Positions 34,776 through 34,875 of a stretch of 64,000 nucleotides of DNA are shown here, one piece after another. The notes under the pieces were generated by a model. That model was not told where the DNA came from and did not search any database. It worked only from the letters and a program-made list of their open reading frames with translations. Source of the DNA: Escherichia coli (lineage in GTDB: Bacteria > Pseudomonadota > Gammaproteobacteria > Enterobacterales > Enterobacteriaceae). The position numbers and the translations under genes are program-made. Where the stretch lies: assembly GCF_003790525.1 (NCBI RefSeq), contig NZ_CP033635.1. One strand, written 5' to 3'. Positions within the stretch are counted from its first letter, which is position 1. Every line of letters begins with the position of its first letter.

Positions 34776-34823
34776 TACTGCTCCTGAACGGTTTACAGGA
34801 GTAAGTGTAGACGCCGAAAAAAG

Positions 34824-34853
34824 AAAACCGCCAGCGTTTCCGCTGGCGGTTTT
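34824..34853 (-). terminator. intrinsic terminator downstream of ybfA at the ybfA/ybgA junction
   Basis: Hairpin AAAACCGCCAGCG-TTTCC-CGCTGGCGGTTTT flanked by an A-run on one side and T-run on the other. Confidence 0.6.
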
Positions 34854-34875
34854 CTTTGAACGTAATATTTAGCAA

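What the first reader, a model, noticed from the sequence alone, without database searches (positions are those of the whole stretch)
34776..34875. No Rhs element at the ybfA / ybgA junction
In E. coli K-12 a large Rhs element with accessory ORFs lies between ybfA and ybgA. Here the two genes are separated by only 100 bp containing a single strong bidirectional hairpin. This strain therefore carries the empty site, useful for defining the Rhs insertion point.
Basis: partly seen in the sequence, partly recalled or inferred. Interest (0 to 1): 0.3.

Follow-up and report, generated by a model that had tools for sequence, protein, structure and literature searches.

The report
Empty RhsC insertion site

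Summary
The window is E. coli SMS-3-5 (100% identity). On the minus strand, ybfA (35082-34876) and ybgA (34775-34266) are separated by exactly 100 bp. K-12 has 9,660 bp there, and 9,559 bp of that is the RhsC element (rhsC, ybfB, ybfO, ybfC, ybfQ, ybfL, ybfD). Both K-12 junctions map into the T-run just after the ybfA terminator, at window 34824-34813. The element has no terminal repeats and there is no target duplication. About 24% of 5,424 complete E. coli genomes have the same contiguous arrangement, including 042, EC958 and an O145 strain. Enterobacter and Trabulsiella share the architecture, so this allele is the pre-insertion state. The gap holds the ybfA intrinsic terminator, a conserved CTACACT box that matches the -10 of K-12's sigma-38 promoter ybgAp1, and the ybgA ribosome-binding site. 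"Bidirectional" describes only the hairpin's shape, because both genes lie on the same strand. Jackson et al. 2009 already listed SMS-3-5 with zero rhs genes and defined this kdpA-phr locus. Two side points: ybgA is a truncated rudS gene, and the Rhs insertion replaced the upstream half of the ybgA promoter. Verdict: real, correctly interpreted, already known, low interest.

The parts
34876..35082 (-). ybfA (DUF2517, 68 aa), the upstream flank of the site
   Evidence: ORF list. RefSeq annotation of the identical record. Pfam DUF2517, E = 1e-33.
34820..34857 (-). ybfA intrinsic terminator hairpin. Arms 34857-34841 and 34836-34820, GAAA loop 34840-34837. The 14-bp core conserved in Escherichia is 34854-34841 / 34836-34823.
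   Evidence: Fold -41.7 kcal/mol, z = -7.0. In 8 Escherichia alleles the 14 core pairs always pair, and the four variable pairs change only to G-U. A GC hairpin plus T-run of different sequence sits at the same place after ybfA in eight other genera.
34817..34827 (-). T-run of the terminator (TTTTCTTTTTT)
   Evidence: Read directly. Conserved as a T-run in all empty-site alleles.
34813..34824 (-). Position of the RhsC insertion in occupied genomes. The last base shared on the ybfA side is 34824. The first base unambiguously shared on the ybgA side is 34813. The 10 nt between are of ambiguous homology.
   Evidence: BLAST breakpoints against K-12. Megablast pieces end at query 814 (window 34813) in 21 of 21 sampled occupied genomes, and 37 of 60 sampled rows begin at query 49 (window 34824). 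Junction sequences.
34801..34811 (-). TCTACACTTAC, containing CTACACT (34810-34804). Inferred to be the sigma-S-type -10 element of the ybgA-phr promoter, homologous to K-12 ybgAp1.
   Evidence: CTACACTTA is identical in 12 of 13 Escherichia alleles (the 13th has CTAAACTTA) and is retained in Enterobacter (CTACACTTA) and Trabulsiella (TACACTTA) although the flanks have diverged. The supplement of bioRxiv 10.1101/2020.02.05.936344 places the sigma-38 -10 of RegulonDB promoter ybgAp1 on the A of CTACACT in K-12. The match to the KCTAYRCTTAA consensus is from my own knowledge. No transcription start was measured here.
34781..34801 (-). ybgA leader: small hairpin CTCCTG / CAGGAG containing the Shine-Dalgarno sequence AGGAG (34785-34781)
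   Evidence: Fold. Conserved in the Escherichia alleles. Any function is inferred.
34266..34775 (-). ybgA (stand-alone DUF1722, 169 aa), the downstream flank; it overlaps phr by 4 nt
   Evidence: Pfam DUF1722, E = 6e-35. It is homologous to the C-terminal half of the full-length RudS found between ybfA and phr in Dickeya, Erwinia, Samsonia and Pragia.
32851..34269 (-). phr/phrB photolyase, second gene of the ybgA-phr unit

Best explanation
The 100 bp between ybfA and ybgA is the uninterrupted, pre-insertion allele of the chromosomal site that holds the RhsC element (rhs locus 5 of Jackson et al.) in K-12 and most other E. coli. It consists of three ordinary working parts in series on the minus strand. 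The first is the rho-independent terminator of ybfA: a GC-rich hairpin with a GAAA loop and a T-run. About 12 nt further on is a conserved CTACACT box, which I infer to be the sigma-S-type -10 element of the ybgA-phr promoter. Last is a short leader carrying the ybgA ribosome-binding site. In occupied genomes, 6.6-13.2 kb of Rhs DNA sits between the T-run and the CTACACT box. It arrived without a target-site duplication and the element has no terminal repeats. Shown here: gene order, hairpin, breakpoints, population frequency and outgroup architecture. Inferred: that the hairpin terminates ybfA transcription, that CTACACT is the functional -10 element, and that this allele was never occupied.
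For: Identity and layout: the window is 100% identical to SMS-3-5, with ybfA and ybgA annotated 100 bp apart. Rhs in K-12: seven Rhs-element genes lie between the same two genes. Breakpoints fall at window 34824 and 34824/34813, with 9,559 bp of K-12-only DNA between them. No RhsC, YbfB, YbfC or YbfD homologue exists anywhere in the 64-kb window. Frequency: 1,310 of 5,424 genomes keep the two flanks in one contiguous match. The same roughly 100-bp gap is present in 042, EC958 and O145 RM9467-C1. Ancestral state: Enterobacter sp. JUb54 (97-bp gap) and Trabulsiella (about 100-bp gap, depending on the start codon) have ybfA, hairpin, T-run, TACACTTA box, SD and ybgA in the same order, and eight further genera keep ybfA next to ybgA/rudS-phr. 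Allele classes: the nucleotides just upstream of CGTCTACAC are CGG or CGC in all 6 empty alleles, but CYCAA, CCTAA, CCAT or CCCAT in all 7 occupied ones, so empty alleles are not recurrent deletion products of occupied ones. Terminator: z = -7, core pairs are always maintained, and other genera have a structurally equivalent hairpin of unrelated sequence. Promoter: the ybgAp1 sigma-38 -10 maps to CTACACT, and ybgA and phrB are induced together at early stationary phase in O157 Sakai (PMC2241611). Literature: SMS-3-5 is listed with 0 rhs genes, and locus 5 is defined as kdpA-phr (PMC2935791).
Against: The same right-hand junction is present in E. albertii, E. whittamii and two other Escherichia species-level genomes. 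Jackson et al. infer that ancestral E. coli carried rhs at this locus. The SMS-3-5 lineage may therefore once have been occupied and later regained an empty allele by recombination. The flanks are mosaic and do not sort by occupancy, so lineage history cannot be read from them. The exact insertion point is uncertain within about 11 nt of T-rich sequence. Terminator and promoter activity were not measured, and the consensus scan did not call either.
Confidence: 0.9

Rival explanations
1. The site is secondarily empty. The SMS-3-5 lineage descended from an E. coli ancestor that carried Rhs at this locus and lost it. The loss was either an in-situ deletion or, more plausibly, replacement of the occupied allele by an empty one through homologous recombination in the ybfA/kdp and ybgA/phr flanks.
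For: E. albertii, E. whittamii and two other Escherichia genomes share the last 20-35 nt of the K-12 element at an identical right junction, so the insertion is old or has spread laterally. Jackson et al. infer rhs at positions 1, 5 and 6 in ancestral E. coli. The ybgA-phr flank is the most diverged collinear block in the window (93.2% to K-12, against 96.3-98.8% for the other blocks) and is mosaic across strains, which indicates frequent recombination here. O145 RM9467-C1 is empty while sampled O157:H7 genomes are occupied.
Against: An in-situ deletion has no substrate: the element ends carry no direct repeats of 9 nt or more. All six empty alleles carry CGG or CGC next to the -10 box, where all occupied alleles carry CYCAA-type sequence. 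The empty architecture matches two outgroup genera. Allelic replacement remains possible, but it still means the DNA in this window is a never-occupied allele, so it bears on lineage history and not on what the sequence is.
Confidence: 0.3
2. The hairpin is a true bidirectional terminator or another regulatory element (a ybgA-phr attenuator, a REP-like repeat, or a 3'-UTR-derived small RNA), rather than simply the ybfA terminator.
For: The stem is flanked by an A-run and a T-run, so either strand gives hairpin plus U-run. It lies only about 45 nt upstream of the ybgA start codon. The small second hairpin includes the SD sequence.
Against: No convergent gene exists: ybfA, ybgA and phr are all on the minus strand. 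The outer A-U pairs are present in only half of the Escherichia alleles. In occupied genomes the hairpin stays with ybfA, 6.6-9.7 kb from ybgA, so it cannot be a ybgA leader element. Rfam gives no match in the window at gathering thresholds. Nothing resembling the hairpin turned up elsewhere in the sequences compared, although no dedicated repeat search was run.
Confidence: 0.07

Closest known systems
RhsC element of E. coli K-12 (rhs locus 5, kdpA-phr, of Jackson et al. 2009, PMC2935791), unoccupied allele
   Same: Same chromosomal position and same flanking genes. Both K-12 junctions map into this 100 bp. SMS-3-5 is already tabulated with zero rhs genes.
   Different: Nothing of the element is present here. 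The papers I could read do not give nucleotide-level coordinates for the junction. Here it is placed at window 34824-34813 (K-12 insert NC_000913.3 729,393-738,951).
Rho-independent (intrinsic) terminators of enterobacterial genes
   Same: A 9-bp GC core extended to 14-17 bp, a GNRA-type GAAA tetraloop and an 11-nt T-rich run directly after the core. The stem starts 18 nt after the ybfA stop codon, and the structure is conserved across genera while the sequence is not.
   Different: The A-run/T-run symmetry gives it the look of a bidirectional terminator, but there is no convergent gene. Activity was not measured.
Sigma-S (sigma-38) promoter ybgAp1 of K-12 as listed in RegulonDB (used in bioRxiv 10.1101/2020.02.05.936344)
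   Same: The -10 element CTACACT and everything downstream are conserved in SMS-3-5.
   Different: In K-12 the -35-like TTCACA (19-nt spacer) and the second promoter ybgAp2 (its -10 falls in the right inverted repeat of the last H-rpt copy) lie in Rhs-element DNA. SMS-3-5 lacks both and has the ybfA terminator T-run in that position.
RudS (TudS/DUF523 fused to DUF1722) tRNA 4-thiouridine desulfidase, often encoded next to photolyase genes (PMC11417400)
   Same: ybgA is homologous to the DUF1722 half and sits in the same ybfA-[rudS]-phr slot as full-length RudS in Dickeya, Erwinia, Samsonia and Pragia.
   Different: The TudS domain is missing in Escherichia, Enterobacter sp. JUb54 and Trabulsiella. 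The cited paper found that YbgA has no effect on s4U content.

Membership tests
Unoccupied RhsC site (rhs locus 5) | Flanked by kdpFABC-ybfA on one side and ybgA-phr on the other | tested here: met
   matches the flanks given in Table 3 of PMC2935791.
Unoccupied RhsC site (rhs locus 5) | No rhs core, tip/immunity, H-rpt or vgrG/eagR sequence between the flanks | tested here: met
   The gap is 100 bp with no ORF. tblastn with RhsC, YbfB, YbfC and YbfD finds nothing in the whole window.
Unoccupied RhsC site (rhs locus 5) | Collinear with both junctions of an occupied genome, with no loss of flanking sequence | tested here: met
   K-12 homology meets at 34824 / 34824-34813. Ten T-rich nucleotides are of ambiguous homology.
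Unoccupied RhsC site (rhs locus 5) | Represents the pre-insertion (ancestral) arrangement rather than a deletion scar | tested here: met
   Enterobacter sp. JUb54 and Trabulsiella have the same element order. There are fixed differences between empty and occupied alleles next to the junction. The element has no repeats that could drive excision. Whether the lineage was once occupied remains open.
Intrinsic (rho-independent) terminator | GC-rich stem-loop immediately followed by a U-run, downstream of a stop codon | tested here: met
Intrinsic (rho-independent) terminator | Structure conserved in orthologous positions | tested here: met
   Core pairs are 100% maintained in 8 Escherichia alleles, with G-U-only changes. 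Other genera have hairpins of different sequence at the same position. Covariation within Escherichia is not significant.
Intrinsic (rho-independent) terminator | Transcripts actually end there | not testable with these tools
   Needs Term-seq or 3'-RACE.
Bidirectional terminator | Serves two convergent transcription units | tested here: not met
   ybfA, ybgA and phr are all on the minus strand. Only the sequence symmetry (A-run/T-run) is present.
Sigma-S-dependent promoter (ybgAp1) | -10 element of the CTAYRCT type with C at -13, at the position of the K-12 promoter | tested here: met
   CTACACT at 34810-34804 is identical to the K-12 site that marks as the sigma-38 -10. The consensus itself is from my own knowledge.
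Sigma-S-dependent promoter (ybgAp1) | rpoS-dependent transcription start in this strain | not testable with these tools
   Only indirect support: ybgA and phrB are induced at stationary phase in Sakai, and ybgA appears in a primer table alongside known RpoS-regulated genes.

The most novel reading that the evidence does not exclude
The Rhs insertion sits about 26 nt upstream of the inferred ybgAp1 start, so it replaced everything upstream of the -10 element of the ybgA-phr promoter. Occupied strains (about 76% of complete genomes) gained a -35-like TTCACA and a second, outward-reading promoter (ybgAp2) from the end of the last H-rpt copy. Empty-site strains such as SMS-3-5 (about 24%) drive photolyase from a -35-less sigma-S promoter that abuts the ybfA terminator. 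Presence or absence of RhsC would then be a natural cis-regulatory polymorphism for photoreactivation capacity in E. coli.
Probability: 0.3. Interest if true: 0.3.

Novelty: already known. Interest (0 to 1): 0.12.

Why it matters
The finding matters little in itself. Strain-to-strain presence or absence of Rhs elements has been known since the 1990s (my own recollection of C. W. Hill's work; those papers were not read here). Jackson et al. 2009 already list SMS-3-5 as rhs-free and define this locus. The useful residue is practical. The work gives a nucleotide-level landmark for the RhsC site: the insertion lies between the ybfA terminator T-run and the ybgA -10 box. It gives population frequencies for the three junction classes. 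It also shows that annotation of the K-12 ybgA promoters mixes native and Rhs-element-derived DNA, which should be kept in mind when K-12 regulatory data for ybgA-phr are transferred to B2, D or F strains.

Tried and rejected
- **Transposon-like insertion.** I looked for terminal direct or inverted repeats and a target-site duplication at the K-12 element ends. Nothing of 9 nt or more was found. The only inverted repeats belong to internal H-rpt copies, and the last one ends about 24 nt before the right junction.
- **Flank phylogeny.** I tested whether the flanks sort by occupancy, which would indicate an ancient two-allele polymorphism. They do not. ybgA and phr are mosaic: SMS-3-5 and EC958 share one divergent ybgA 5' haplotype, while 042 and O145 (also empty) resemble occupied strains.
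- **Known RNA families.** Rfam at gathering thresholds gave no match over the whole window.
- **Consensus scan.** The promoter/terminator scan flagged neither the hairpin nor a sigma-70 promoter in the gap. For the hairpin this follows from the tool's stem rule.
- **Relic coding sequence in the leader.** I asked whether the ybgA leader is left over from rudS coding sequence. The local alignment extends only 8 residues upstream of the start codon (PVNRSGAV against PVEEDGRL). That is suggestive but not significant.
- **Primary literature.** I tried to read Lacour & Landini 2004 for the ybgA start site, but the paper is not held.
- **Outgroup coverage.** The single genome-contig scan did not return E. 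fergusonii, Salmonella or the E. coli type-strain representative, so those outgroups remain unchecked.

Full report
**Identity and observation**

The window is Escherichia coli SMS-3-5. Window 34000-35600 matches NC_010498.1 at 100% identity, and the window's plus strand is the reverse complement of that record. The mechanical ORF list and the RefSeq annotation agree on the minus-strand genes:
- ybfA at window 35082-34876
- ybgA at 34775-34266
- phr at 34269-32851

kdpFABC diverges from ybfA on the plus strand.

The hairpin is real. Its arms are AAAGAAAACCGCCAGCG (34857-34841) and CGCTGGCGGTTTTCTTT (34836-34820), with a GAAA loop. The 100-nt transcript folds at -41.7 kcal/mol against -20.7 +/- 3.0 for shuffles (z = -7.0, 0 of 200 as stable). 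A second, 6-bp hairpin (CTCCTG / CAGGAG, 34801-34781) contains the ybgA Shine-Dalgarno sequence.

**Comparison with K-12**

In MG1655, seven annotated features lie between ybfA and ybgA: rhsC, ybfB, ybfO, ybfC, ybfQ, ybfL and ybfD. The two genes are 9,660 bp apart. BLAST of the junction against this region gives two collinear pieces:
- ybfA side: up to window 34824 (K-12 locus 2893), 96.6% identity
- ybgA side: from window 34824 (locus 12453), 87.6% identity

Megablast ends the unambiguous ybgA-side homology at 34813. The K-12-only segment is 9,559 bp (NC_000913.3 729,393-738,951) with 49.6% G+C.

The insertion point therefore lies in the T-run directly after the terminator stem. It falls within window 34824-34813, with 10 T-rich nucleotides of ambiguous homology. 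The element ends carry no direct or inverted repeat of 9 nt or more, and there is no target duplication. The only inverted repeats belong to internal H-rpt (ISAs1-family) copies, and the last of these ends about 24 nt before the right junction. The window has no RhsC, YbfB, YbfC or YbfD homologue anywhere.

**Population picture**

5,424 of 5,426 complete E. coli genomes contain the flanks. In 1,310 of them (24%) the flanks lie in one contiguous match.

An even sample down the ranking of a ybfA-side query gave the following:

| Rows (of 60) | Where the match begins | Meaning |
|---|---|---|
| 15 | Full-length | Empty site |
| 42 | Window 34818-34824 | K-12-type left junction |
| 2 | ybfA stop codon | A different left junction |
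| 1 | Matches only query 1-38 (the ybgA leader) | Not classified |

All 21 sampled occupied genomes end at the same right boundary.

I confirmed empty sites with gaps of 100-101 bp in 042, EC958 and O145 RM9467-C1. By my own knowledge these strains, together with SMS-3-5, span phylogroups D, B2 and F.

Occupied sites vary in content:
- Strain 4069 has 6.6 kb: an RHS core protein, a small ORF, an orphan RHS fragment and a ybfD remnant.
- Strain 2017.09.02CC has 13.2 kb. This includes a DcrB/EagR-like fragment and a 1,544-aa PAAR-RHS protein with an ADP-ribosyltransferase tip, plus several orphan modules and ISEc1 copies.

In that second class the K-12/SMS-type terminator is replaced by other sequence immediately after the ybfA stop codon. 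That left end occurs in 146-200 genomes, about 3%. One otherwise contiguous genome has an IS1 and extra sequence in the gap.

**Is the empty allele ancestral?**

A scan of one genome per species with YbgA returned 15 loci.

Enterobacter sp. JUb54 (97-bp gap) and Trabulsiella (about 100-bp gap, depending on the start codon) have the same series as SMS-3-5: ybfA stop, GC hairpin, T-run, 10-12 nt, (C)TACACTTA, SD, ybgA. Samsonia, Dickeya, three Erwinia, Pragia and Budvicia keep ybfA next to a phr-linked gene and also have a hairpin plus T-run after ybfA, of unrelated sequence. The uninterrupted arrangement is therefore the ancestral one.

Four non-coli Escherichia genomes (E. albertii, E. whittamii, sp. 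E1V33, sp. MOD1-EC7003) share the last 20-35 nt of the K-12 element at the identical right junction. This agrees with Jackson et al. 2009, who found complete rhs genes at this locus in E. albertii and inferred that it predates E. coli (PMC2935791).

Three observations show that the DNA in this window is a never-interrupted allele and not a deletion scar:
- The nucleotides next to the junction differ consistently between the two classes. All 6 empty alleles have CGG or CGC, while all 7 occupied alleles have CYCAA, CCTAA, CCAT or CCCAT.
- The element has no repeats that could drive excision.
- The architecture matches the outgroup genera.

Whether the SMS-3-5 lineage was once occupied and later regained an empty allele by recombination cannot be decided. 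The ybgA-phr flank is mosaic and does not sort by occupancy.

**What the 100 bp does (inferred)**

1. *Terminator of ybfA.* In 8 Escherichia alleles the 14 core pairs always pair. The four variable pairs change on one side only, to G-U. Within-genus covariation is not significant, so the cross-genus structural conservation is the stronger argument. In occupied genomes of the K-12 type the hairpin stays with ybfA, so it is not a ybgA leader element. "Bidirectional" describes only the A-run/T-run symmetry, because there is no convergent gene.
2. *The conserved CTACACT box (34810-34804).* The supplement of bioRxiv 10.1101/2020.02.05.936344 takes 169 sigma-38 promoters from RegulonDB. It places the -10 of ybgAp1 on this box in K-12 (coordinate 738191 of NC_000913.2) and the -10 of ybgAp2 at 738137. 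ybgA and phrB rise together more than 4-fold at early stationary phase in O157 Sakai (PMC2241611).
3. *The leader with AGGAG.*

The Rhs insertion sits about 26 nt upstream of the inferred transcription start. In K-12, the -35-like TTCACA (19-nt spacer) and all of ybgAp2 are therefore Rhs-element DNA; the ybgAp2 -10 falls in the H-rpt right inverted repeat. SMS-3-5 has the terminator T-run at that position instead.

**Background on ybgA**

YbgA contains only DUF1722. In Dickeya, Erwinia, Samsonia and Pragia, the gene between ybfA and phr is a protein of about 320 aa with 2-thiouracil desulfurase (TudS) plus DUF1722. This is the RudS tRNA s4U desulfidase architecture. PMC11417400 notes that E. 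coli retains only the stand-alone DUF1722. The ybfA-ybgA gap is therefore also where the TudS half was lost, in the lineage leading to Escherichia, Enterobacter sp. JUb54 and Trabulsiella. Weak residual similarity extends 8 codons upstream of the ybgA start codon (not significant).

**Novelty and verdict**

Jackson et al. 2009 tabulate SMS-3-5 (NC_010498) with zero rhs genes in all six clades and define rhs locus 5 by kdpA and phr. Strain variation in Rhs content is older knowledge still.

The finding is already known. This check adds the nucleotide-level junction, the class frequencies, the ancestral-state argument and the promoter consequence. None of these is surprising.

Interest is 0.12. 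The most novel reading not excluded is that Rhs presence or absence is a cis-regulatory polymorphism for ybgA-phr expression (probability about 0.3, modest interest).

Noticed in passing
window 34266-34775 (ybgA); loci L009, L011-L016: ybgA is the 3' (DUF1722) half of rudS. Full-length TudS+DUF1722 genes occupy the same ybfA-[gene]-phr slot in Samsonia, Dickeya, Erwinia and Pragia, and in a shortened 265-aa form in Budvicia. Escherichia, Enterobacter sp. JUb54 and Trabulsiella have only the truncated gene, so the ybfA-ybgA gap is also the site of an older loss of the TudS domain.
   Followed up: partly
window 32858-34824 (ybgA-phr): This is the most diverged collinear block between SMS-3-5 and K-12 (93.2%, against 96.3-98.8% for the other blocks). 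Within E. coli, phr differs by 4-8% and the first 300 nt of ybgA by up to 10%, which approaches between-species values. The pattern is mosaic and does not follow Rhs occupancy.
   Followed up: partly
K-12 locus L001 12360-12501 (no counterpart in the window): Of the two RegulonDB sigma-38 promoters of K-12 ybgA, ybgAp2 and the -35-like hexamer of ybgAp1 lie in Rhs-element DNA. The ybgAp2 -10 falls in the right inverted repeat of the last H-rpt copy, making it an outward-reading promoter at an IS end.
   Followed up: partly
L019 15021-16004 (strain 2017.09.02CC); about 146-200 genomes: A minority class of occupied sites has a different left junction. The K-12/SMS-type ybfA terminator is replaced immediately after the stop codon by other sequence (which contains its own hairpin-like palindrome), followed by a DcrB/EagR-like fragment and a longer PAAR-RHS gene. 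This looks like a more complete T6SS effector module than K-12 RhsC.
   Followed up: partly
window ~25535-25571: About 4.8 kb of the K-12 ybgO-ybgP-ybgQ-ybgD fimbrial operon (K-12 748,314-753,091) is missing. RefSeq annotates a truncated type 1 fimbrial pseudogene next to the junction.
   Followed up: no
window 1-13755: This stretch has no K-12 counterpart downstream of sucD. Where K-12 has mngR-mngA-mngB and following genes, SMS-3-5 carries a methylaspartate-pathway cluster: glutamate mutase glmS/glmL/subunit E, methylaspartate ammonia-lyase, a class I fumarate hydratase, cobO, a dicarboxylate symporter and a LysR regulator.
   Followed up: no
window 32810-32850 (phr-dtpD intergenic): The gap is 41 bp here against 149 bp in K-12. 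The extra ~108 bp in K-12 is a REP/BIME-type palindrome. The indel is polymorphic: short in 042 and EC958, long in O145 RM9467-C1 and K-12.
   Followed up: partly
L026 (strain DETEC-S586), equivalent to window 34776-34875: One genome that otherwise has contiguous flanks carries an IS1 plus about 60 nt of unrelated sequence between the ybfA terminator and a 5'-shortened ybgA. This may be an IS1-mediated deletion derivative of an occupied site.
   Followed up: no
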